From Acidimicrobiia bacterium (GTDB taxonomy: Bacteria; Actinomycetota; Acidimicrobiia; IMCC26256; JACDBD01), in assembly GCA_051002235.1 (NCBI GenBank), contig JBPCMN010000069.1, positions 670 through 64,669 on the forward strand: a stretch of DNA of 64,000 nt. The letters run 5' to 3'. Numbering within the stretch: position 1 is the first letter of the stretch; each line of letters begins with the position of its first letter. This document shows positions 3,434-51,499 of this stretch, one piece after another. The notes under the pieces are model-generated. The model worked only from the letters and a program-made list of their open reading frames with translations, did no database searches and was not told the DNA's origin. The translations under genes and the position numbers were made by a program.

Positions 3434-4933
3434 TTGTCCGAGCAGGAAGCGGCGGAGGCGGTCGACAGCGCCACTGCCCCCGAGTCGAGTGAAGCAGCGC
3501 CGGCAGCAGCGGCTGCCACCGCCTTGAGTGGCGAGAGCGGCGCCCAGGACGGCACCGTCGTCCTCGACGACCTCGGCAGCCAATCGTTCTCTGATGCGGT
3601 TGACGAGACCATCGTCGCGTTCGACGACGGCGACATCGTCAAGGGCACGGTCGTCAAGATCGACAGCGACGAGGTTCTGCTCGACATCGGCTACAAGTCC
3701 GAGGGCGTCATCCCGTCGCGCGAGCTCTCGATCCGCAACGACGTCGACCCCGGCGAGATCGTCCAGCTCGACCAGGAGCTCGAGGCCCTCGTCCTCACGA
3801 AGGAGGACAAGGACGGCCGGCTCATCCTCTCCAAGAAGCGGGCTCAGTACGAGCGGGCCTGGGGCACGATCGAGGAGATCAAGGAGAAGGAAGGCGTCGT
3901 CGAGGGCCCGGTAATCGAGGTGGTCAAGGGCGGGCTCATTCTCGACATCGGGCTGCGGGGCTTCCTCCCCGCGTCGCTCGTCGACCTCCGTCGGGTGCGC
4001 GACCTGCACCCGTTCGTCGGCCGCACGCTCGAGTGCAAGATCATCGAGCTCGACAAGAACCGCAACAACGTCGTCCTCTCGCGCCGGGCCTACCTCGAGG
4101 AGACCCAGCGGGAGCAGCGCGACGAGTTCCTCACCAACCTCAAGCCGGGCGAGATCCGCAAGGGCGTGGTCTCCTCGGTCGTCAACTTCGGCGCCTTCGT
4201 CGACCTCGGCGGCATGGACGGGCTCGTCCACGTCTCCGAGCTGAGCTGGAAGCACGTCGACCACCCCAGCTCGGTGGTCCAGGTCGGCGACGAGGTCGAG
4301 GTCCAGGTCCTCGACGTCGATCTGAGCCGCGAGCGCATCTCGCTCTCGCTCAAGGCGACCCAGCAGGACCCGTGGCAGGAGTTCGCCAACTCCCACGAGG
4401 TCGGCGAGCTCGTCTACGGACGGGTCACCAAGCTGGTGCCGTTCGGAGCCTTCGTGCAGGTAGGTGACGGCATCGAGGGGCTCGTCCACATCTCGGAGAT
4501 GGCGGCCCACCACGTCGAGGCGCCCGAGCAGGTCGTCACCCCGGGCGAGGAGCTCTGGGTGAAGATCATCGACATCGACCTCGACCGCCGTCGCATCTCG
4601 CTGTCGGTCAAGCAGGCGGCGGAAGGTGGGGTGGTCGCGGCCGAGTACCAGGAGCAGTTCGGCGAACACGCCTACGACGATCAGGGCAACTACATCGGCC
4701 CCGACTACACCGAGGGCGCGGCCGCACCGCCCGCGCCCGGGAACGTGCCGACGACCGACGAGGAGATCATCGTGGGCAGCGCCGCGGTGGCGGGGACCGT
4801 GGCAGCCGCGCCCGAGGTCGACGCCGCACCCGAGATCGAGCCCGCACCCGAGGTCGAGGCCGCGTCCGAGGTCGAGGCCGCGTCCGAGGTCGAGGCCGCG
4901 CCTCCGCCCGAGCCTGACGTCCCCGACGCCTGA
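3434..4933 (+). CDS. rpsA: 30S ribosomal protein S1
   Basis: Four or more S1 OB-fold repeats (GDIVKGTVVKIDSDEVLLDIGYKSEGVIP, GEIRKGVVSSVVNFGAFVDLGGMDGLVHVSE, GELVYGRVTKLVPFGAFVQV). Proposed TTG start at 3434 after GAGGAG. The ORF-track N-terminal extension from 3149 overlaps the divergent gene. Confidence 0.9.
   Translation: MSEQEAAEAVDSATAPESSEAAPAAAAATALSGESGAQDGTVVLDDLGSQSFSDAVDETIVAFDDGDIVKGTVVKIDSDEVLLDIGYKSEGVIPSRELSIRNDVDPGEIVQLDQELEALVLTKEDKDGRLILSKKRAQYERAWGTIEEIKEKEGVVEGPVIEVVKGGLILDIGLRGFLPASLVDLRRVRDLHPFVGRTLECKIIELDKNRNNVVLSRRAYLEETQREQRDEFLTNLKPGEIRKGVVSSVVNFGAFVDLGGMDGLVHVSELSWKHVDHPSSVVQVGDEVEVQVLDVDLSRERISLSLKATQQDPWQEFANSHEVGELVYGRVTKLVPFGAFVQVGDGIEGLVHISEMAAHHVEAPEQVVTPGEELWVKIIDIDLDRRRISLSVKQAAEGGVVAAEYQEQFGEHAYDDQGNYIGPDYTEGAAAPPAPGNVPTTDEEIIVGSAAVAGTVAAAPEVDAAPEIEPAPEVEAASEVEAASEVEAAPPPEPDVPDA
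4808..4897 (+). repeat. five tandem 18-bp units (6-aa A-P/S-E-V/I-E/D-A) in the 3' end of rpsA
   Basis: Direct reading gives gcgcccgaggtcgacgcc / gcacccgagatcgagccc / gcacccgaggtcgaggcc / gcgtccgaggtcgaggcc / gcgtccgaggtcgaggcc. Confidence 0.9.
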
Positions 4934-4946
4934 GGCGATACGTAGC

Positions 4947-5555
4947 TTGCTCCTCGTCGGGCTGACCGGCGGGATCGGCGCCGGGAAGTCGACGGTCGCG
5001 GAACTGCTGACGGCCAAGGGCGCGGTCGTCGTCGACGCCGACGAGGTGGCCCGTGCCGTCGCCGAGCCGGGGCAGCCCGCGTTCGACGCGATCGTCGAGC
5101 GGTTCGGGCCGGAGGTCGTTACCGCCGACGGCACGATCGATCGTGCCGCCCTCGCCCGGGTGGCGTTCGCCGACGACCAGTCGCGTCAGGATCTCGAGGG
5201 CATCACCCACCCCGCGATCAATACCGAGTTCACCCGCCGAGTGGCCGAATCGCCCACCGATCGGGTCGTCGTGCTCGACGTTCCCCTCCTGGTGGAGTCG
5301 TCGAAGGCGCGGGAGCGGCCGTACGAGGCGGTGATCGTGGTCGAAGCTCCTCGCGATGTCCGTCTCGCCCGGCTGGAGGCCCGAGGCGTGCCCCGAGCGG
5401 ATGCCGAGCGGCGCATGGCCGCCCAGGCCAGCGACGAGGACCGGCGGGCGGTCGCCACGCTCGTCGTGGACAACTCGGGCGACCGCGACGACCTCGCCCG
5501 CCAGGTCGACGAGGTGTGGGCCGAGCTCGAGCGAATACACCGCGAGAAGGGTTGA
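4947..5555 (+). CDS. coaE: dephospho-CoA kinase
   Basis: P-loop LVGLTGGIGAGKSTVAELL near the N-terminus and a single-domain length of about 200 aa. The start (TTG 4947) is uncertain. Sits in the conserved rpsA-coaE-uvrB position. Confidence 0.85.
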   Translation: MLLVGLTGGIGAGKSTVAELLTAKGAVVVDADEVARAVAEPGQPAFDAIVERFGPEVVTADGTIDRAALARVAFADDQSRQDLEGITHPAINTEFTRRVAESPTDRVVVLDVPLLVESSKARERPYEAVIVVEAPRDVRLARLEARGVPRADAERRMAAQASDEDRRAVATLVVDNSGDRDDLARQVDEVWAELERIHREKG

Positions 5556-46315: not shown

Positions 46316-47488
46316 TCATCGCGAGCCAGGCGACGAGGGCCCGCCGGTCGTGGGTTCCCAGGAGTCGGCGACGAGTCCGTCGTACGCGAGTCCCCACGGG
46401 GGTCGGAGGAACCCGAGGGCCCGTACGTCCTCGAACCAGTGGCCGAACGGTGAGTGTCGGGCGAACGTCCCGCCGCCGAGCACGCGGCAGATCCGCAGCA
46501 GGCACGACTCCGCGAGCTGGGCCGCGATCGTCTTGCCGCGCAGCGCAGCGCCCCGGGCGGGATTCCCTGACTCGATCGCACGGAGCATGCCTTCGTAGGC
46601 CTGCTCGGCGGTCCACGCCTCGAGCTCCGCCTGGGCCCATTCCACCTGCTCGTAGGGTCGGAGCGATTCTGCCTTCGGTGCCAGCTGTGCCCGCGCGGCC
46701 GCGGTGGCGGTCTCGAGGATGCCGAGGACCACGGCGGTGAAGAGCGTGCCGATGAACGGGGCGGCGGCGTCGATCAGGTCGTCGAGGTGTCCGGGCCAGG
46801 CGAAGCGTTCGACCGGGCAGTCAGCGAACGCGAGCGCGTGGCTCTGAGTCGCCCGCATTCCGTGACCATCCCATGGAGCCATGAGTGTGATGCCCGCGGA
46901 TCCGTCGAAAGGATTGCCCTCGACAGGGACGTAGAACCAGTCGGCATCTTCCTCGCCGTCGGGCACGGCGGTGGTCACCATGTAGGAGGTGATCCCCGAC
47001 CCGCTCCCGAAGTGCTTCTGTCCGCTCAGCCGCCATGCGTCGGCGTCACGCCGAGCGACGGCTCTCGATCGGTGGACGTCACCGCCGCTCCCCGGCTCCG
47101 AGGTGATCGTGCCCCACCACGCGCCCTGCTCCACACTGTCGAACACCGCGGTGCGCTGACCGCTCCAGTCGCCGGTGTCGAGCTCGGGGACGTGCGGTGT
47201 GGCGAGCCAGAACGAGAGGACGGCGGGATGCATGGCGCAAACGAGTGCGACTGACGAGTCGCCGTGGGCGAGTATCCGGTAGATCTCGCAGATCGATCGT
47301 GTCGACTCCGGAAGGCTGTGCCAGAGACCATCCCGCTCGGCGGGAAGCCCGGCCGTCTGCAGCCCGGCTTCGGCCAGGAGACCGAAGTCCTCCCGGGCGA
47401 GCGTGGTGCGCATCTGGCGTTCGCTCCGGTCGGCCGCGAAGCTCTCGGCCAGCTTCTCCACCGCACGACGGACACTCTCCGCGCTCAT
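46316..47488 (-). CDS. acyl-CoA dehydrogenase-family flavoprotein
   Basis: ATG 47488 (MSAESVRRAVEKLAESF). ACAD-like middle and C-terminal regions (WWGTITSEPGSGGD, RLSGQKHFGSGSGITSY). The ORF-track N-terminal extension to 47848 was rejected. Confidence 0.75.
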   Translation of the reverse strand: MSAESVRRAVEKLAESFAADRSERQMRTTLAREDFGLLAEAGLQTAGLPAERDGLWHSLPESTRSICEIYRILAHGDSSVALVCAMHPAVLSFWLATPHVPELDTGDWSGQRTAVFDSVEQGAWWGTITSEPGSGGDVHRSRAVARRDADAWRLSGQKHFGSGSGITSYMVTTAVPDGEEDADWFYVPVEGNPFDGSAGITLMAPWDGHGMRATQSHALAFADCPVERFAWPGHLDDLIDAAAPFIGTLFTAVVLGILETATAAARAQLAPKAESLRPYEQVEWAQAELEAWTAEQAYEGMLRAIESGNPARGAALRGKTIAAQLAESCLLRICRVLGGGTFARHSPFGHWFEDVRALGFLRPPWGLAYDGLVADSWEPTTGGPSSPGSR

Positions 47489-47546
47489 GGCACCCCCTCT
47501 GCGCCGGTGGGAAGGGTACAAGGTCGTCCCGACTTCATTTTCTTCT

Positions 47547-48470
47547 TCACCGGTCAACGTCGCGATCCGCTTCGGCCAGTTCCCTGAACTCATCGGGGAC
47601 GCCCCGCGCTTCACGGAACACGACGGCCGCGTAGCCGACCGCATCCCGGCCGAACCGGGCACGTACCTCGTCGACGGCCCGGTCCAACGCCCAGCGAGCC
47701 GAGGCAGCCGCCGTGCCCGGGCGGTGCGGTTCGTCGCCGAGGCCGAGAGGCAACTCGAGCTGGAGTGTGGATTCTGCAACCAGGTTGGAGACCGAGATCG
47801 CAAGGAGGGTGATCTCGCGCTCACCGGGATGGTCGGCGAGCGCCGCATTCGCGAGATCGACGCTCAGCTCGGCGAGCGCGAGCGTCGTCGAAACCGCCCA
47901 CGGCAGCGTCACCGACCGCGTGACCGAGCGGAGGCCCGTGAACCGAACCCGGACGGTGATGGTCCGTCCGGCGCGTTCGTTGGCCCGCAGCCTCGTCGCC
48001 ACGCGGTCGGCGAGAAACCCGAGCGCCGCCCGTAGCAGCTGGTCGGTGGCGACGCGACGCCCAAGGGCGGACTGGGCACCCACTGACCGGGTGCGCCGAC
48101 TCGTCTGGATCCGGCGAGGATCAGCGTTGGCCGCGAGTGACCCGAGCTTCGCTCCTGCCGCCTCACCGAGCAGCCGCGGCAATGTTGACGGCGAGATCGA
48201 GGCCAGCTCGCCGATGGTACGGATACCCGTCGCCGCGAGCCGCGCTCCTTGTGACCGGCCCGACGCCCCACAGCAGTTCGACCGGCAACTGTTCCGGTCG
48301 AGACGGAGGTCGAGGCGGGTGACCTCGTCGTGCGCACCGTTGCGGGGCCCCACAGCTACGTCGTCGAGCGCGCCTGACGGCGGGCGCCCAGGACCGCGGG
48401 TAGCGTCACCGGCGAGCGGGAGGGATGCCTTCGGGCGCCTTCGAGCGGAGCAGCGCAAGACAGCGCGATG
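47547..48470 (-). pseudogene. Y-family DNA polymerase (DinB-like), 5'-truncated and frameshifted
   Basis: The HhH and little-finger part is intact in one frame (ARLAATGIRTIGELA...RSVGAQSALG...RTITVRVRFTGLRSVTRSVTL...ITLLAISVSNL). The immediately preceding hallmark LPVELLWGVGPVT is in a different frame, with the shift near 48240-48252. No catalytic N-terminal domain is found in any frame upstream, where the RT gene begins instead. Confidence 0.7.
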
Positions 48471-49796
48471 GTCACATCGATCCCTGGAGGCGGATGCTTG
48501 CGTACCTCCGAGTGCGGCGATGCCGCTTCAAAGCGACCTCCCTCCCGCTCCCTTCTCGATGACGTCGTCACCGATGCACCATGGGTCGCGGTCGTCGACG
48601 GGTTCCGAACCCGACAGCCCCGCCGGCGCGATCGCATCGCCGAGTACGAGGGGCTCCTCGATCGGGGCGAGCATCTCCGGGTCGGCGCCGAGGTTCTCGC
48701 CGGGTGCTACCAGCCGAACCCACCGGCAGAGGGTTGGCTGAACAAGGCTGATGGCCGCAAGAAGCGGCTCTTCCAGTACCAGCCGGTCGACGAGCTGCTC
48801 TTTAGGGTGGTCAACCGTCTGATGCAGCCGGCCGCGGTGGAGAAGGCCTCACCGTGGTGCCGGTCGTTTCTTCCCGGCGGCGGCGCGAGGGCCGCGTTCC
48901 GCAGCGTGCTCGCCGACCCGGATACCGAGCCCAAGGCCGCGCTGCGCCTCGACGTGCGCGACTACTTCAACTCGATCGACGTGCGAGATCTCCTCAGCCG
49001 GCTCCCCGAACCGTTCGCCGAAGGTCCAGTGGGCAGGCTCCTGACCACCGCACTGCTGGACCCGCGGGTGGTGCGATCGGGGCGCATCGTCGACGGCGGC
49101 CGCAAAGGCGTCATGGCCGGAACGCCCATCGCGCCGATGCTCGCCACCCTCTACCTGCGTGACCTCGACCGCGAGATCGCCGCGACCGGTGCAACGTACG
49201 CGCGCTACAGCGACGATATTCTCGTGCTCGCGCCACCCGGTGAGCTCCCGACGGTGGAGCGACTCGTTCGCGATCGCCTCGCGGAGCGCGGCCTGGACGT
49301 CAACGAAGAGAAGTCGGCGTCGACCGCGCCGGGCGAGGCCTGGGACTTCCTCGGCTTCCGTTACGAGGGGGGCGCGATCGGGCTCGCTCCCATCACCGAG
49401 CGGAAACTCAAGGCGAAGACCACCCGCCTCGCCCGCAGCCTGCTCCGCTGGCGGGAACGGAAGGGCGCGTCGTCGACCCGGACGGTTGGCGCGTTCGTCC
49501 GTCGCAGCAACCGGCGCCTCTACGGCGTGCCGGCCGAGCGCGCCGACTTCTCGTGGGCCACGTGGTTCCTCCCGATGCTCGACCTGCCGCAGGGCCTCGA
49601 GGGGCTCGACCACCACCTGCAACGCGAGGCCCGCTACGCCGCGACCGGGCAACGGACGGCCCGCAGCCGCCGGCTCGTGCCGTACTCGGCGTTGATCGAC
49701 GCCGGTTACCTGCCGCTGGTGTCGGCCTTCTGGGCGATGCAGCAAGGGACCGGGGCCTACGACGAACTCGTCTCCCGTCGCACCGGTCTGATCTGA
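48468..49796 (+). CDS. stand-alone reverse transcriptase (RVT_1-type), class undetermined
   Basis: RT motifs appear in order: KADGRKKRLF (1), LRLDVRDYFNSID (3), GVMAGTPIAPMLATLYL (4), YARYSDDILVL (5, YxDD), GLDVNEEKS (6), FLGFRY (7). A ~150-aa C-terminal region follows with no maturase or endonuclease motifs that I recognise. Confidence 0.85.
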   Translation: MVTSIPGGGCLRTSECGDAASKRPPSRSLLDDVVTDAPWVAVVDGFRTRQPRRRDRIAEYEGLLDRGEHLRVGAEVLAGCYQPNPPAEGWLNKADGRKKRLFQYQPVDELLFRVVNRLMQPAAVEKASPWCRSFLPGGGARAAFRSVLADPDTEPKAALRLDVRDYFNSIDVRDLLSRLPEPFAEGPVGRLLTTALLDPRVVRSGRIVDGGRKGVMAGTPIAPMLATLYLRDLDREIAATGATYARYSDDILVLAPPGELPTVERLVRDRLAERGLDVNEEKSASTAPGEAWDFLGFRYEGGAIGLAPITERKLKAKTTRLARSLLRWRERKGASSTRTVGAFVRRSNRRLYGVPAERADFSWATWFLPMLDLPQGLEGLDHHLQREARYAATGQRTARSRRLVPYSALIDAGYLPLVSAFWAMQQGTGAYDELVSRRTGLI

Positions 49797-49814
49797 CGTC
49801 GCGCTGGCAGCCGA

Positions 49815-50372
49815 TCAGCGTCCGAGATGCTCGGCGACGGTGCGGGCGAGACTCGTCTGTTCCCCAGCCTCGAGGCCGGTGATCTCCAGCACAACCCGCG
49901 ACTCGTTGGCGCCGAGGAACACGAGCGACCGTCCGTCGGGGAGCGTGGCGGTGGAGCCACCCGCGACATCGGTCGACGGTGTCGTGCCGCCCGGGGGCTC
50001 CCACGCCTGGTGCTCGGGATACAACTGGTAGAAGAGCGCAGCCGAACGCCCCGCCGTGGCCCACCGTCGCCCCATACCGAAGGGCTCCTCCACGACTTCG
50101 CTCTTGGTGCTACGCGGCACACCGGCGCGGTCCCGCTCGTCGATGGGGAGCACGGCCGCAGGGTCGACGAGACCGCGCTCGCGCCACCCAGGACGCCCGA
50201 GCATGCCGGGCACATACGGCGTGCCGAACCGGGAATCGGTCGACGCCGCGGAGGGTCCGGAGGCTCCGCCCGCAGCTCCTCGCTTCGCCTGCACGTCGGC
50301 CACCGCGTCCCCGGCCAACTCCTTGGCCTGCTCGGCCACTTTCTTGGCCCGATCGAGGAATCCCACGACCAA
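49815..50372 (-). CDS. hypothetical protein
   Basis: 185-aa ORF convergent with the RT gene, with coding-like composition. No family recognised. Confidence 0.45.
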   Translation of the reverse strand: MVVGFLDRAKKVAEQAKELAGDAVADVQAKRGAAGGASGPSAASTDSRFGTPYVPGMLGRPGWRERGLVDPAAVLPIDERDRAGVPRSTKSEVVEEPFGMGRRWATAGRSAALFYQLYPEHQAWEPPGGTTPSTDVAGGSTATLPDGRSLVFLGANESRVVLEITGLEAGEQTSLARTVAEHLGR

Positions 50373-50380
50373 GACGGTAC

Positions 50381-51499
50381 TCAGTCGAGCGGGACCATTC
50401 GAATGTCGTGGGAGTCGGCGTCGGCGGCGAGGAACCGGAGCACGCGCCGGCCCTCGGCGGCGACCGCCGAGGTCGCCCGCTTGGTGAGGCGGCCGAGGCG
50501 GGTCACGACCAGGGTGGCGGCATCCGTGGTCTTGACCCGGTCGATCCGCCAGACGGCGCGCAGCGTGCCGTCGACCAGCACCGACCCGTGGAAGGGGTCA
50601 CCCGTCCCGTAGAGCCGGGGTTGATCGGCATCGAGAAACCGGGACCGGTCGGCGTGCGAGAGCAGCGCGTTGTCGAACTCGGGCAGGAAGCGTGGCGGGG
50701 CCGGCACGTCGGGCTCGGGTCGGGGGGCGTCGGGAAGGTCGACGAGCTCACGACCGGCCTCGTCGTGAAAGACGCGGACGCGAGGTCGGAGGCGCTCCAC
50801 CACCTCCCGCAGGCCGGTGAGGCGTGACCATGTCGTCATGTCGGCCACCGACGCGGGCCCGAACGCGCCGAGGTAGCGCAGCAGCACCTCATCGATCGGC
50901 GGATCCGCCATAGGTCGCCCCAGCCACGACTCGGCGGTCGCCAACGTCACCGGGCCGGCGCGACCCCAGATCCCGCGCGGGGGCACCTGAACGAGCGCGA
51001 GGTGGTTCCGGCAGGCGAATGCCAGCGCGGCGGCGTCGTGCTCGGCGAACCGCTCGGCCAGGGCCGCTCGGAGCTGGGGCGCGGTATGAGGCTGGCGGAG
51101 AATCTCGCGAGCGACGGTCAACACCTCGCCGAGGTCGATGCGCTCGAGGACGGGCGCGTGGTCGCGATGGCGGCGCAGTTCGGCGTCGAGCACCGGCTGC
51201 ACGAGCCGGGGCAGCACCAGGGCATCGTCGGCGGTGACCAGATGGATCGTCCCCCGCATGACGACGGTGCGCACGACCTTTCGATCGAGGATGAGCTCCG
51301 CCAGGTCGTCCGGCCGGAACCGCTCCAGCCGGGACCACAGCCCGAGGTAAGGGTTGAGCGGCACCTGGGCCTGCATGCCGACGAGATGGTGCACGGTGTC
51401 GAGCACGGGCGCGTCGGCACGGCGCAGTAAGAGCTGGCGCTCGAGGGTCGCCCGGTTGAGGGCCCGCCGGCTCAGGACGTCGGTGCTCACGGCGGTCAT
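50381..51499 (-). CDS. winged-helix DNA-binding domain protein (YcaQ/AlkZ-like DNA glycosylase family)
   Basis: LSRRALNRATLERQLLLRR...VHHLVGMQAQVPLNPYLGLWSRLERF...VRTVVMRGTIHLV is typical of the DUF1006/YcaQ family. Confidence 0.75.
   Translation of the reverse strand: MTAVSTDVLSRRALNRATLERQLLLRRADAPVLDTVHHLVGMQAQVPLNPYLGLWSRLERFRPDDLAELILDRKVVRTVVMRGTIHLVTADDALVLPRLVQPVLDAELRRHRDHAPVLERIDLGEVLTVAREILRQPHTAPQLRAALAERFAEHDAAALAFACRNHLALVQVPPRGIWGRAGPVTLATAESWLGRPMADPPIDEVLLRYLGAFGPASVADMTTWSRLTGLREVVERLRPRVRVFHDEAGRELVDLPDAPRPEPDVPAPPRFLPEFDNALLSHADRSRFLDADQPRLYGTGDPFHGSVLVDGTLRAVWRIDRVKTTDAATLVVTRLGRLTKRATSAVAAEGRRVLRFLAADADSHDIRMVPLD

What the first reader, a model, noticed from the sequence alone, without database searches (positions are those of the whole stretch)
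48468..49796. Orphan reverse transcriptase inserted where the Y-family polymerase gene loses its 5' half
The 442-aa ORF contains RT motifs 1-7 with a YSDD catalytic box. I see no maturase or endonuclease domain, no recognisable retron-type VTG region and no DGR-type SQ motif. Its 5' end abuts, head to head, the point where the decayed dinB-like gene runs out, so the RT probably arrived on an insertion that deleted the polymerase N-terminus. Stand-alone bacterial RTs of this kind are frequently components of anti-phage systems (DRT/UG classes, Abi-like), often with an adjacent structured ncRNA. The ~170 nt upstream and the convergent 185-aa ORF downstream are candidates for partner elements.
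Basis: partly seen in the sequence, partly recalled or inferred. Interest (0 to 1): 0.7.

Follow-up and report, generated by a model that had tools for sequence, protein, structure and literature searches.

The report
Three-part reverse transcriptase, RNA, partner module
The reverse transcriptase is not an orphan: it belongs to a compact 2-kb unit, together with a highly conserved folded RNA at its 5' end and a small partner protein, that recurs in actinobacteria, Firmicutes and archaea and most resembles recently described phage-defence systems that write repetitive DNA from an RNA template.

Summary
The ORF, its YSDD motif, the head-to-head truncated dinB and the convergent ORF are all real.

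- **RT:** it is a full-length member of UG26, an uncharacterised Class 2 UG/Abi group (PADLOC E 2.8e-82).
- **Missed RNA:** a 137-nt structured RNA (48414-48550) overlaps the first codons of the ORF. It is 83-97% identical in relatives whose RT coding DNA is 71-80% identical. Across 52 sequences, 45 of 48 base pairs show compensatory changes.
- **Link to RT-5:** my covariance models connect it to Rfam RT-5 (RF03026), a motif of unknown function. Rfam's own model does not detect the window copy.
- **Partner ORF:** it follows the RT in 18 of 18 actinobacterial loci with enough sequence. It shares only an N-terminal MG-F/L-F/L-D motif with the known UG26 accessory protein, RTasCOG2852.
- **Module:** the unit (about 48383-50380) keeps sharp boundaries while its flanks differ between genomes.
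- **dinB:** it lacks orthologue residues 1 to about 185. Insertion by the module is plausible but unproven.
- **Mechanism (inferred):** by analogy with DRT9 and DRT10, the RT would make RNA-templated repetitive cDNA with the partner as effector. A defence role is unproven, because all sampled actinobacterial contexts are housekeeping genes.

I rate it a new variant of a known kind, of moderate to high interest.

The parts
48383..50380 (.). The whole conserved module (promoter region, RNA, RT gene, convergent partner gene), about 2.0 kb.
   Evidence: blastn of four close relatives with unrelated flanks (L162, L161, L158, L068) matches the window at 77.6-80.3% identity. The matches start at 48383-48397 and end at 50355-50380.
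48401..48406 (+). Conserved TAGCGT box (TANNNT), the candidate -10 promoter element, 7 nt before the RNA's first paired base.
   Evidence: 'GGTAGCGT/GGTAGCCT' is conserved in the 20-locus upstream alignment, and sequence further upstream is unrelated between loci. The E. coli-type promoter scan found nothing. Promoter function is inferred.
48414..48550 (+). Structured RNA of 137 nt, a divergent relative of Rfam RT-5 (RF03026). Helices: P1 48414-25/48539-50; P2 48427-30/48433-36; P4 48447-50/48506-09; P5 48453-61/48496-503; variable hairpin P6 48466-79; P7 48480-85/48489-95; P9 48514-18/48522-26. Helices 3 and 8 are weak.
   Evidence: It is near-invariant across 20 loci. On 52 distinct sequences, 91.4% of cells are paired against 45-52% with slid partners, and 45 of 48 pairs show compensatory change. 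The covariation score is 0.674 against 0.16 or less, and 0 of 500 shuffles reach it. Model R1, built from actinobacteria only, finds the Firmicutes and archaeal copies, and those copies are RF03026 by Rfam.
48527..48538 (+). Conserved loop UUCAAAGCGACC between the last hairpin and the 3' strand of the basal stem. Candidate template or RT-recognition site.
   Evidence: UUCAAA(G/U) is conserved in nearly all 53 aligned sequences of all clades. It occupies the same position as the DRT10 template loop, immediately 3' of a boundary hairpin (PMC12632851). The template role is an inference. The A-B-A' test did not discriminate.
48498..49796 (+). UG26-class reverse transcriptase, 432 aa from TTG 48498. 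The maximal ORF runs from ATG 48468 (442 aa).
   Evidence: PADLOC RT_UG26 matches at E 2.8e-82 over profile positions 2-397 of 398. There are 963 homologues, the top 120 at 66-100% identity, and those carrying a taxon name are Acidimicrobiia, Acidimicrobiales or Actinomycetota. Start-codon evidence: the second NTG is ATG, GTG or TTG in 10 of 11 loci where it is in frame. It is CTG in 8 of 9 loci where the upstream ATG is in frame instead. The conserved protein begins at 'SLLD', right after the RNA.
49815..50366 (-). Partner protein (183 aa from GTG 50366). It has an N-terminal MGFLDRAKK helix, a low-complexity linker, and a conserved C-terminal alpha+beta domain of about 130 aa with no known relative.
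   Evidence: It lies immediately after the RT in 18 of 18 actinobacterial loci that have enough downstream sequence (49-69% identity), and in L068, L155, L157, L158, L161 and L162. It has about 390 homologues with no Pfam domain. The AF2 model gives pLDDT of about 90 for the C-domain. It has no match in Foldseek-PDB, PDB sequence profiles, Pfam, NCBIfam or PADLOC. Only the N-terminal ~20 residues align with the RTasCOG2852 family.
47547..48288 (-). Remnant of a Y-family DNA polymerase IV (dinB) gene. It keeps the C-terminal thumb and little-finger part only, with one frameshift near 48240. It is a flanking pseudogene, not part of the module.
   Evidence: Pfam IMS_C and NCBIfam NF003015 positions 185-399 match. 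tblastn with six full-length orthologues gives 60-71% identity at 47568-48245 and a short frameshifted piece at 48232-48288, with no N-terminal remnant elsewhere.

Best explanation
Window 48383-50380 is a self-contained three-part reverse-transcriptase system of the UG26 group (Class 2 UG/Abi RTs). It consists of:
- a 137-nt multi-helix RNA, a divergent relative of the Rfam RT-5 motif;
- the RT, whose translation starts inside the RNA's 3' half;
- a convergent 183-aa partner protein.

**Shown:**
- The three parts co-occur and are conserved as one block.
- The RNA fold is supported by covariation.
- The RNA is the most constrained part of the module.
- The same RNA accompanies UG26 RTs in Firmicutes, Bacteroidota, Acidobacteriota and Methanomassiliicoccales. 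There it usually comes with a partner carrying the same MG-F/L-F/L-D N-terminus on a different C-terminal domain.

**Inferred**, by analogy with the related Class 2 systems DRT9 (UG28) and DRT10 (UG17):
- The RT binds this RNA as a scaffold.
- It repeatedly copies a short internal template, possibly primed from a residue of the RT itself. The best candidate template is the conserved loop UUCAAAGCGACC, just 3' of the last hairpin.
- The resulting repetitive single-stranded DNA acts through the partner protein, most probably to stop growth when a phage infects.

In the actinobacterial branch the start codon and a GGAGG lie inside helices P5 and P7. RT binding or RNA folding should therefore also limit the RT's own translation. 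The truncated dinB is a neighbouring casualty of rearrangement at the module's edge, not a functional partner.
For: **RT class**
- PADLOC RT_UG26 matches at E 2.8e-82 over the full length. The next best models are UG17 at 4.8e-29 and UG4, UG27 and Drt9.
- The catalytic motifs are intact.

**RNA**
- The block is near-invariant.
- The covariation statistics are strong.
- Model R2 finds it on the RT strand in 53 of 57 UG26 loci.
- The distant copies are RF03026 RT-5.
- The RNA segment is 83-97% identical, against 71-80% for the RT coding DNA and 67-79% for the partner.

**RNA as a component, not just a leader**
- It lies about 90 nt downstream of the RT in the archaeal loci L055 and L058.
- It ends before the RT ATG in Firmicutes.

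**Partner**
- Synteny holds in 18 of 18 actinobacterial loci.
- 31 of 44 distant loci have a clustered upstream partner, which PADLOC recognises as RTasCOG2852 in 19 of 25.
- The N-terminal motif is shared between the two partner families.

**Module boundaries:**

**Start codon inside the RNA:** (pair col57-col123 has five pair types).

**Mechanistic precedent**
- DRT10 is a three-part system of ncRNA, effector and RT. Its 137-nt RNA has a basal stem, several stem-loops and a template loop just 3' of a boundary hairpin. It makes protein-primed tandem-repeat cDNA (PMC12632851; bioRxiv 10.64898/2026.04.29.721553).
- That paper proposes that other Class 2 UG systems also use ncRNA templates.
Against: - There is no experimental or sequence evidence for any cDNA product, template or priming residue.
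- The A-B-A' repeat test was no better than a control that swaps stems between sequences (2.64 against 2.67).
- The eight sampled actinobacterial neighbourhoods contain no defence genes, integrases or transposases.
- Mestre et al. found the defence association of UG26 inconclusive.
- The partner has no recognisable effector fold and no transmembrane SLATT-like domain.
- About 10 of 44 distant loci and three viral-contig UG26 RTs show no partner, and the viral ones show no detectable RNA.
- The very high conservation of the RNA and RT within Actinomycetota is atypical for fast-evolving defence genes.
Confidence: 0.55

Rival explanations
1. The RNA is primarily a cis-acting translational leader. 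The RT binds the structured 5' end of its own mRNA, or the fold itself hides the start codon and GGAGG, and thereby autoregulates RT synthesis. This would resemble a group II intron protein binding domain IVa (from my knowledge of the L. lactis Ll.LtrB system). No templating role is needed.
For: In the window and the other actinobacterial loci the start codon lies in the 3' strand of helix P5. The base at its first position covaries with its pairing partner (GC 8, UA 6, AU 2, GU 2, UG 2). A GGAGG sits 7-8 nt upstream, in hairpin P7.
Against: The same RNA ends 5-10 nt before the RT ATG in Firmicutes. It lies about 90-115 nt downstream of the RT stop in two archaeal loci. So the overlap with the start codon is specific to one clade. 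The GGAGG corresponds to GCAGG in the other clades. Unpaired nucleotides conserved in every clade (UUCAAAG, CGUAC) are not explained by start-site occlusion. This reading can coexist with the best explanation as a secondary function.
Confidence: 0.12
2. The module is not an immune system in Acidimicrobiia. It is a vertically maintained, domesticated RT-RNA-protein machine with a cellular role. One example would be making a specific single-stranded DNA for DNA-damage tolerance, repair or genome maintenance.
For: - There are hundreds of homologues at 66-81% protein identity across Acidimicrobiia and up to other Actinomycetota classes.
- The RNA is 83-97% identical.
- Each locus searched holds one copy.
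- Every sampled context is metabolic or housekeeping.
- The window and L158 share the nearby ADH gene, and the window and L162 share AlkZ, so the module has stayed in one neighbourhood within this lineage.
- DNA-repair genes recur nearby: AlkZ, the dinB remnant, EndoV and LigD.
- No UG26 copy appears in the plasmid or phage genome collections.
Against: - The DRT10 paper (PMC12632851) states that all experimentally characterised UG RTs have been implicated in phage defence.
- The module's nucleotide identity (78-80%) is lower than that of adjacent housekeeping genes in the same pairs of genomes (88-89%). Its position relative to AlkZ differs between relatives. Both fit a more mobile or faster-evolving element.
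- The flanks differ in most genomes.
- The repair-gene association rests on very few loci, and AlkZ-like paralogues are common in actinobacteria (my knowledge).
Confidence: 0.2
3. It is a retron or the remnant of a mobile retroelement. The upstream RNA with its long closing stem would play the role of msr-msd, making branched multicopy single-stranded DNA.
For: The RNA sits immediately 5' of the RT, and its ends pair in a 12-bp stem like the retron a1/a2 repeats. Weinberg et al. 2017 speculated that many RT motifs act in retrons. The module occupies different genomic positions.
Against: - Retron RT profiles score poorly (PADLOC retron models E about 1e-9; NCBIfam retron_St85 39.7 bits against a cut-off of 235) compared with UG26 at 274.6 bits.
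- The base after the 5' strand of the closing stem is U or A, not the conserved branching G of retrons (the retron feature is from my knowledge).
- Rfam detects no group II intron domains, and the group II RT/maturase model scores 84.6 bits against a cut-off of 300.
- There is no endonuclease or maturase domain.
- There is one copy per locus, and no terminal repeats above chance.
Confidence: 0.05

Closest known systems
UG26 group of Class 2 UG/Abi reverse transcriptases (Mestre et al. 2022, PMC9226505; PADLOC models RT_UG26 and RTasCOG2852)
   Same: The RT matches the UG26 profile over its full length (E 2.8e-82). It has no fused extra domain and sits next to a small accessory gene.
   Different: - The published description had 35 members, an accessory COG2852/YcjD-like protein in 9 of them, no ncRNA, and an inconclusive defence prediction.
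- In the window the accessory protein is a different family that shares only the ~20 N-terminal residues. It is convergent and downstream, not upstream on the same strand.
- The clade is actinobacterial, only 27-38% identical to the Firmicutes-type RTs.
RT-5 RNA motif (Rfam RF03026; Weinberg et al. 2017, PMC5737381)
   Same: It shares the central helices (my P4, P5, P7, P9) and the UUCAAA loop, and it lies next to the RT gene on the same strand. Copies in Firmicutes, Bacteroidota and archaea that my models align with the window RNA score above Rfam's gathering threshold.
   Different: - The window copy is not detected by RF03026 even at E 10 in a 171-nt search.
- The Rfam model lacks the 12-bp basal stem P1 and hairpin P2, which covary in all clades.
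- The paper gave RT-5 no function, and neither it nor Mestre et al. 2022 links it to UG26 or a partner protein.
- In the window the RNA contains the RT start codon.
DRT10 (UG17 RT + ncRNA + SLATT effector; PMC12632851, bioRxiv 10.64898/2026.04.29.721553)
   Same: - UG17 is the second-best RT model after a generic PADLOC RT model (E 4.8e-29).
- It has the same three-part layout of RNA, small protein and RT.
- Its RNA is of similar size (137 nt), with a basal stem, several stem-loops and a single-stranded loop just 3' of the last hairpin.
   Different: - The RT class is different.
- The partner is not a SLATT transmembrane protein.
- The loop sequence is conserved across the whole family here but poorly conserved in DRT10.
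- No cDNA product, priming residue or defence phenotype is known for UG26.
DRT9 (UG28 RT + ncRNA; PMC12483538, PMC12489045)
   Same: It is a Class 2 UG RT with an upstream ncRNA that is unusually conserved in sequence as well as structure, including a universally conserved template stretch.
   Different: DRT9 has no partner protein, and its template is poly-U, giving poly-dA. The UG26 loop is UUCAAAG. The Drt9 profile match to the window RT is weak (E 4.2e-16).
Retron msr-msd RNA with its RT
   Same: A structured RNA lies immediately 5' of the RT gene, and its two ends pair in a long stem.
   Different: The RT is not of retron type. There is no conserved branching G after the 5' strand. There is no msd-like long hairpin.

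Membership tests
UG26 (Class 2 UG/Abi RT) | The RT matches the UG26 profile better than any other RT class, over its full length. | tested here: met
   PADLOC RT_UG26 gives E 2.8e-82, 274.6 bits, profile positions 2-397 of 398. The next class-specific model, UG17, gives 99.5 bits.
UG26 (Class 2 UG/Abi RT) | Intact RT catalytic core (motif A aspartate, YxDD) and no additional fused domain. | tested here: met
   D152, YSDD and the other motifs are invariant in the 24-sequence alignment. Pfam finds RVT_1 only.
UG26 (Class 2 UG/Abi RT) | Accessory COG2852/YcjD-like protein (PADLOC RTasCOG2852), reported in a subset of members. | tested here: not met
   The window partner and all 37 aligned homologues give no RTasCOG2852 hit at E up to 5. 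The profile-profile comparison aligns only about 20 N-terminal residues. 19 of 25 distant partners do match.
UG26 (Class 2 UG/Abi RT) | Anti-phage activity (the basis for calling a UG group a DRT). | not testable with these tools
The literature calls the prediction inconclusive.
Rfam RF03026 RT-5 RNA | Scores at or above the family's gathering threshold (45.7 bits). | tested here: not met
   No RF03026 hit appears in window 48000-50500 at E 1, nor in 48395-48565 at E 10.
Rfam RF03026 RT-5 RNA | Homologous fold: shared helices supported by covariation, linked by reciprocal model searches. | tested here: met
   Model R1, built from actinobacterial sequences only, finds about 20 distant loci at E 1e-7 to 5e-3. 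Five of those were tested and all are RF03026. The joint alignment has 91.4% of cells paired and compensatory change in 45 of 48 pairs.
Rfam RF03026 RT-5 RNA | Located next to a reverse-transcriptase gene. | tested here: met
   It lies on the RT strand in 53 of 57 loci, and within about 120 nt of the RT in those examined.
DRT10 (UG17) | UG17-class RT with a SLATT transmembrane effector. | tested here: not met
   UG17 is the second-best class-specific RT model, not the best. The partner has no Pfam or PADLOC match and no SLATT hit.
DRT10 (UG17) | Template loop with an A-B-A' repeat 3' of a boundary hairpin. | tested here: inconclusive
   A loop is present in the right position. A (U)UC...(U)UC spacing of about 11 nt is regular. 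But repeat length equals the swap control (2.64 against 2.67).
DRT10 (UG17) | Protein-primed tandem-repeat cDNA product. | not testable with these tools
   This needs cDNA sequencing. The only lead is a nearly invariant Tyr (Y396) in the C-terminal region.
Retron | Retron-type RT. | tested here: not met
   NCBIfam retron_St85 gives 39.7 bits against a cut-off of 235. PADLOC retron RT models give E about 1e-8 to 1e-9.
Retron | ncRNA with terminal inverted repeats and a conserved branching G next to them. | tested here: not met
   A terminal stem is present, but the adjacent base is U or A in the alignment. The branching-G criterion is from my knowledge.
Group II intron | RT/maturase reaching the family cut-off, with intron RNA domains on both sides. 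| tested here: not met
   TIGR04416 gives 84.6 bits against a cut-off of 300. Rfam finds no intron family in 48000-50500.
DNA polymerase IV (DinB), for the neighbouring gene | N-terminal catalytic palm and fingers domain (Pfam IMS). | tested here: not met
   Only profile positions 185-399 are present. No N-terminal remnant appears anywhere in the window.

The most novel reading that the evidence does not exclude
In Acidimicrobiia the UG26/RT-5 module is not a phage-defence island gene. It is a stably inherited cellular ribonucleoprotein: an RT that uses its own invariant RNA loop to write a defined repeat DNA, with a clade-specific partner protein, serving genome maintenance or damage tolerance. 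That would make it a bacterial and archaeal counterpart of telomerase-like repeat synthesis with a housekeeping function. It would also explain its extreme RNA conservation, its single-copy core-genome contexts and its recurrent proximity to DNA-repair genes.
Probability: 0.12. Interest if true: 0.9.

Novelty: new variant of a known kind. Interest (0 to 1): 0.6.

Why it matters
UG26 is one of the RT groups for which nothing is known beyond a sequence profile. RT-5 is one of many orphan RNA motifs.

**What this locus and its relatives show**
- UG26 and RT-5 belong together.
- The RNA is larger than the Rfam model: it also has a covarying 12-bp basal stem and an extra hairpin.
- The system has a third, modular protein component recognisable by a short N-terminal motif.
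- It extends into Actinomycetota and archaea.

**Why that is useful**
- It turns an uncharacterised RT group into a defined, clonable 2-kb unit with precise mutational targets: YSDD, the loop 48527-48538, P1, the partner's N-terminus and Y396.
- It adds a candidate member to the family of RNA-templated DNA-writing systems (DRT2, DRT9, DRT10) now being linked to the origin of telomerase.
- It gives annotators a covariance model that finds copies Rfam misses.
- It corrects the RT's start and shows that its first ~18 codons are really RNA structure.

Tried and rejected
**Partner function**
- Foldseek against the PDB gave no hit below E 0.001 (best 0.0096, TM 0.13-0.26).
- PDB sequence-profile searches gave nothing for the orf185 family and only coiled-coil noise for the distant partners.
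- Pfam and NCBIfam gave nothing meaningful.
- hhalign of the C-terminal domains alone found no relationship.

**dinB insertion test**
- The metagenome scan for dinB relatives returned 80 loci with full-length genes. None shares the window's flanking genes, so no empty site was found.
- Same-species contigs all carry the truncation.
- The 8-nt direct repeat GTCGAGCG just outside both module edges is no longer than chance (shuffles give a mean of 7.1 and a maximum of 12).
- I first thought the short AlkZ-like ORF upstream of the RT in L162 was a second truncated target gene. It is the intact orthologue's N-terminal part, split by frameshifts and cut by the contig end.

**RNA analyses**
- Reading the conserved block as codons was rejected. 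The frame differs between loci and L013 has an in-frame stop.
- The apparent CGAU...CGAU direct repeat around the variable region is only the palindromic P6 hairpin (reading).
- The A-B-A' template test did not discriminate.
- Alignment A3 was contaminated with antisense hits and was discarded.

**Other**
- The E. coli-type promoter and terminator scan found nothing useful.
- Phage and plasmid collections hold no close UG26 relative.
- One 2026 preprint on ncRNA mining could not be read.


Full report
**1. The observation**

The 442-aa ORF at 48468..49796(+) exists.
- It carries a single Pfam domain, RVT_1 (E 1.1e-14).
- It has intact catalytic motifs, including YSDD.

Head to head with it lies ORF 47547..48458(-). 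This ORF matches only the C-terminal half of DNA polymerase IV (NCBIfam NF003015 positions 185-399 of 399; Pfam IMS_C). A convergent 185-aa ORF (49815..50372) follows the RT after 18 nt.

**2. What kind of RT it is**

PADLOC places the protein in RT_UG26 over the full profile (E 2.8e-82, 274.6 bits). UG17, UG4, UG27, Drt3a and Drt9 score far behind. NCBIfam's group II intron, retron and Drt models all fall far below their cut-offs. Rfam finds no intron or other family in 48000-50500.

UG26 is a small Class 2 UG/Abi group in Mestre et al. 2022 (PMC9226505). It had:
- 35 members;
- an accessory COG2852/YcjD-like gene in 9 of them;
- no ncRNA reported;
- an 'inconclusive' defence prediction.

The protein database holds 963 homologues. 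The best 120 are 66-100% identical, and those that carry a taxon name are Acidimicrobiia, Acidimicrobiales or Actinomycetota. A genome scan returned 20 actinobacterial loci at 58-71% identity (one of them a truncated match). It also returned about 45 distant loci at 27-38% from Firmicutes, Bacteroidota, Acidobacteriota, Bifidobacteriaceae and Methanomassiliicoccales archaea.

**3.

Aligning the upstream regions of the actinobacterial loci shows that all similarity stops abruptly about 25 nt before the RNA. From there a block of about 150 nt is almost invariant, although the proteins are only 58-71% identical. The block starts with a TAGCGT box (48401-48406). Its ends, GAGCGGGAGGGA and UCCCUCCCGCUC, are exact complements.

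The block covers the first ~28 codons of the annotated ORF but is not conserved as codons:
- the reading frame through it differs between loci, because the hairpin loop is 3 nt in some and 4 nt in others;
- one locus has an in-frame stop.

RNAalifold gives a multi-helix junction. Covariation counts on three alignments:

| Alignment | Sequences | Cells paired | Paired with slid partners | Pairs with compensatory change | Covariation score |
|---|---|---|---|---|---|
| Actinobacterial only | 20 | 98.4% | 37-51% | 5 (0-1 slid) | 0.092 (0.04 or less slid) |
| Both clades | 29 | 95.0% | 42-57% | 40 of 49 | 0.547 (0.14 or less slid) |
| Full set | 52 distinct | 91.4% | 45-52% | 45 of 48 | 0.674 (0.16 or less slid) |

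- A covariance model built from the actinobacterial sequences alone (R1) finds full-length matches at E 1e-7 to 5e-3 in about 20 of the distant loci. They are always on the RT strand, in the spacer next to the RT.
- In the full set, 0 of 500 shuffles reach any observed measure.
- The two later alignments were fitted to the model, which favours the structure. But the margin is large, and the first, MAFFT-based alignment already showed the key pairs.
- Helices 3 and 8 are weak (65-70% paired) and should not be relied on.
- A second model from both clades (R2) finds the RNA in 53 of 57 loci searched.

Window coordinates:

| Element | Coordinates |
|---|---|
| RNA | 48414-48550 |
| P1 | 48414-25 / 48539-50 |
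| P2 | 48427-30 / 48433-36 |
| P4 | 48447-50 / 48506-09 |
| P5 | 48453-61 / 48496-503 |
| P6 (variable hairpin) | 48466-79 |
| P7 | 48480-85 / 48489-95 |
| P9 | 48514-18 / 48522-26 |
| Conserved loop UUCAAAGCGACC | 48527-38 |

Against eight relatives (L162, L161, L158, L068, L157, L155, L016, L017), the RNA is 83-97% identical. The RT coding DNA is 71-80% identical and the partner gene 67-79%.

**4. The RNA is partly known**

The distant-clade copies match Rfam RF03026, 'RT-5 RNA', above its gathering score (50.8-79.7 bits against 45.7) in all five loci tested.

RT-5 is one of nineteen 'RT motifs' that Weinberg et al. 2017 (PMC5737381) listed as lying near RT genes. They speculated these might act in retrons or DGRs, and the main text makes no specific statement about RT-5.
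- The 104-position Rfam model covers my P4, P5, P7, P9 and the loop.
- It does not cover the basal stem P1 or hairpin P2.
- It does not detect the window copy, even at E 10 in a 171-nt search.

So the window RNA is a divergent relative, connected to RT-5 only through the models built here. In the papers I could search or read, RT-5 is not linked to UG26.

**5. Where translation starts**

The RT frame stays open through the RNA in nearly all actinobacterial loci. It offers two alternative starts within 'GGCGG-AUG-UC-NUG-CGU':
- where the NUG is in frame it is AUG, GUG or UUG in 10 of 11 loci;
- where the upstream AUG is in frame the NUG is CUG in 8 of 9 loci.

The first base of that NUG also pairs with a covarying partner in P5, with five pair types. 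In the window the start is therefore most likely TTG 48498, as public gene calls have it (432 aa). A GGAGG lies 7 nt upstream, in hairpin P7.

In the distant clades the RT begins 'M-SLLDEL'. This aligns with window '...RSLLDDV', immediately after the RNA, and there the ATG lies 5-10 nt after P1. The ~18 extra N-terminal residues of the actinobacterial RTs are thus encoded by the RNA's 3' half.

**6. The partner protein**

tblastn shows the 185-aa ORF immediately after the RT in all 18 actinobacterial loci that extend far enough. Identity is 49-69%. It is convergent in 17 loci and on the same strand in L005. By contrast, dinB, AlkZ and the acyl-CoA dehydrogenase are not conserved neighbours.

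- The family has about 390 members and no Pfam domain.
- Its members start MGFLD(R/K)AKK, continue with a low-complexity linker of variable length, and end in a highly conserved domain of about 130 aa.
- That consensus shows the window gene starts at GTG 50366.
- AlphaFold models the C-domain with pLDDT of about 90.
- Nothing matches it significantly in Foldseek-PDB, PDB sequence profiles, PADLOC or NCBIfam.

In 31 of 44 distant loci a 160-207-aa ORF lies immediately upstream of the RNA on the RT strand. It starts MGLFDK or MGFLDK, has a linker, and ends in a different domain of about 100 aa. PADLOC recognises 19 of 25 as RTasCOG2852, the accessory protein of Mestre et al.. Profile comparison aligns only the ~20 N-terminal residues of the two families.

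An archaeal locus (L050) has a third variant, MGLLDK followed by a Cys-rich tail, downstream of the RT. About 10 distant loci show no such ORF.

The recurring N-terminal motif on interchangeable C-domains suggests a docking peptide plus a variable effector or sensor. This is inference. From memory, the motif resembles the N-terminal amphipathic helix of PspA/Vipp1 and of actinobacterial MT0933-like proteins. I did not test this.

**7. The module and its surroundings**

blastn against four close relatives (RT 76-80% identical at protein level) matches the window only from 48383-48397 to 50355-50380, at 77.6-80.3% identity. The flanks are unrelated:

| Locus | Left flank | Right flank |
|---|---|---|
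| L158 | CorA | peptidase M24 |
| L161 | ORF cut by the contig end (not annotated) | LigD Prim-Pol |
| L068 | methyltransferase | CLC channel |
| L162 | AlkZ | DUF6510 |

- In L162 the AlkZ orthologue (88% nt identity) lies upstream of the module. In the window it lies downstream.
- L158 shares the window's ADH gene about 1 kb away.
- Further contexts (L155-L157) are also metabolic.
- No integrase, transposase or recognised defence gene was seen.
- No close UG26 relative appears in the phage or plasmid collections.
- Three IMG/VR contigs carry UG26-class RTs at 22-27% identity among phage-like genes, but without a detectable RNA or partner.

**8. The dinB question**

- Orthologues have open frames of about 418-450 codons wherever the contig allows.
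- Six of them align to the window at 47568-48245 (60-71% identity), plus a frameshifted piece up to 48288, from about orthologue residue 186 onward. Nothing of residues 1-185 is found anywhere in the window.
- The breakpoint is about 100 nt from the module's left edge.
- All same-species contigs have the same arrangement.
- No relative with shared flanks and an intact dinB was found.
- The 8-nt repeat outside both edges is at chance level.

A rearrangement linked to the module's arrival is therefore the simplest reading, but it is not demonstrated. The remnant is a pseudogene, not a partner.

**9. How it most likely works**

Shown:
- It is a conserved unit of RNA, RT and partner.
- The RNA is the most constrained part.
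- Its position relative to the RT can change: upstream, overlapping, or downstream in the archaeal loci L055 and L058.

That positional freedom argues for an RNA component rather than a mere leader.

Inferred: the related Class 2 systems are RT-ncRNA machines that repeatedly copy a short template.
- DRT9 makes poly-dA from a conserved poly-U.
- DRT10 (UG17) is a three-part system of ncRNA, SLATT effector and RT. Its 137-nt RNA has a basal stem and several stem-loops. A template loop lies just 3' of a boundary hairpin and carries an A-B-A' repeat. The system makes protein-primed tandem repeats.

The UG26 RNA has the same general layout. It has a conserved loop in the corresponding position, and the RT has a nearly invariant Tyr in its C-terminal region. 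I therefore propose RNA-templated, probably repetitive, cDNA synthesis, with the partner acting downstream.

My A-B-A' test found a regular (U)UC...(U)UC spacing of about 11 nt. But repeat length equals the control that swaps stems between sequences (2.64 against 2.67). The shuffled-loop control is lower (2.18 +/- 0.12), but this does not separate a real repeat from the effect of the pyrimidine-rich stem. So the template assignment remains a hypothesis.

In the actinobacterial clade the start codon lies inside P5 and the GGAGG inside P7. This should couple RNA folding or RT binding to RT translation.

Whether the output is anti-phage defence or a cellular function is open. Precedent favours defence. 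The housekeeping contexts and strong conservation in Actinomycetota leave room for a non-defence role.

**10. Verdict**

- The RT is a member of the known UG26 group.
- The RNA is a divergent, extended relative of the known RT-5 motif.
- The partner is a new protein family sharing only a short N-terminal motif with the known UG26 accessory protein.

The new result is the link between these three and the resulting three-part architecture. It makes an uncharacterised RT group directly testable.

Noticed in passing
L008:279-390, L024:2342-2450, L007:6057-6115, L001:6045-6110 (just 3' of the RNA); also protein P0078: In-frame tandem repeats (18, 27, 27 and 21 nt; 2-6 copies) lie directly after the RNA. 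In L008 and L024 each unit re-copies the 3' strand of the basal stem (CCUCCCGCUC); the L007 and L001 units are more diverged. They give the RT N-terminus peptide repeats such as SPQASR x6. Slippage, alternative stem registers or a trace of RT activity are all possible.
   Followed up: no
window 48414-48425 / 48539-48550 and the same stem in all loci (alignment A6): All 12 pairs of the basal stem covary. Yet the 5' strand stays purine-rich and the 3' strand pyrimidine-rich in every clade (GAGCGGGAGGGA in actinobacteria, AGAAAGAGAAA in Firmicutes). This strand asymmetry is not explained by pairing alone.
   Followed up: partly
L055:7228-7390 and L058:7252-7410 (Methanomassiliicoccales archaea): The RT-5-type RNA lies about 90-115 nt downstream of the RT stop codon instead of upstream, and no MG-x-x-D partner ORF is nearby.
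   Followed up: partly
L162:1-800 versus window 50691-51476: The same AlkZ-like glycosylase orthologue (88% nt identity) sits upstream of the module in L162 but downstream of it in the window, a circular permutation of gene order. The L162 copy has two frameshifts, either assembly errors or decay.
   Followed up: partly
window 47547-48288 and 50381-51499; L068:15047-16126; L161:2413-3426 and 4279-5295: DNA-repair or DNA-processing genes recur near the actinobacterial module: the dinB remnant and AlkZ in the window, endonuclease V in L068, LigD primase-polymerase and topoisomerase IB in L161. There are too few loci to tell association from chance.
   Followed up: no
L163:2767-3963, L164:2998-4200, L165:2189-3382 (IMG/VR contigs): Three low-GC viral contigs encode RTs that PADLOC calls UG26 (E 1e-76 to 1e-91) among phage-like genes. 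Model R2 finds no RNA there and there is no MG-x-x-D partner. They may be a third branch with a diverged or absent RNA.
   Followed up: partly
L036:5985-6000 and other Firmicutes-type loci: The RT ATG lies 5-10 nt after the pyrimidine strand of P1 and a run of U, with no Shine-Dalgarno sequence. How these RTs are translated is unclear.
   Followed up: no
window 50355-50380: Module homology ends at the partner's start codon, so no conserved promoter region precedes the partner gene. In the window it starts 14 nt after the AlkZ stop, and in L068 and L155 it also follows a co-directional gene closely. Its transcription may depend on whichever gene lies upstream.
   Followed up: no
L012:3965-3995: A 25-nt insertion in the variable P6 region forms an extra hairpin, so this part of the RNA tolerates expansion.
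   Followed up: no
L005:7297-7791: In this one actinobacterial locus the partner gene is on the same strand as the RT, directly downstream, instead of convergent.
   Followed up: no
window 46316-47848 (-): The 510-aa ORF in the mechanical list is an over-extension typical of high-GC DNA. Public gene calls give a 385-aa acyl-CoA dehydrogenase, corresponding to 46331-47488.
   Followed up: partly
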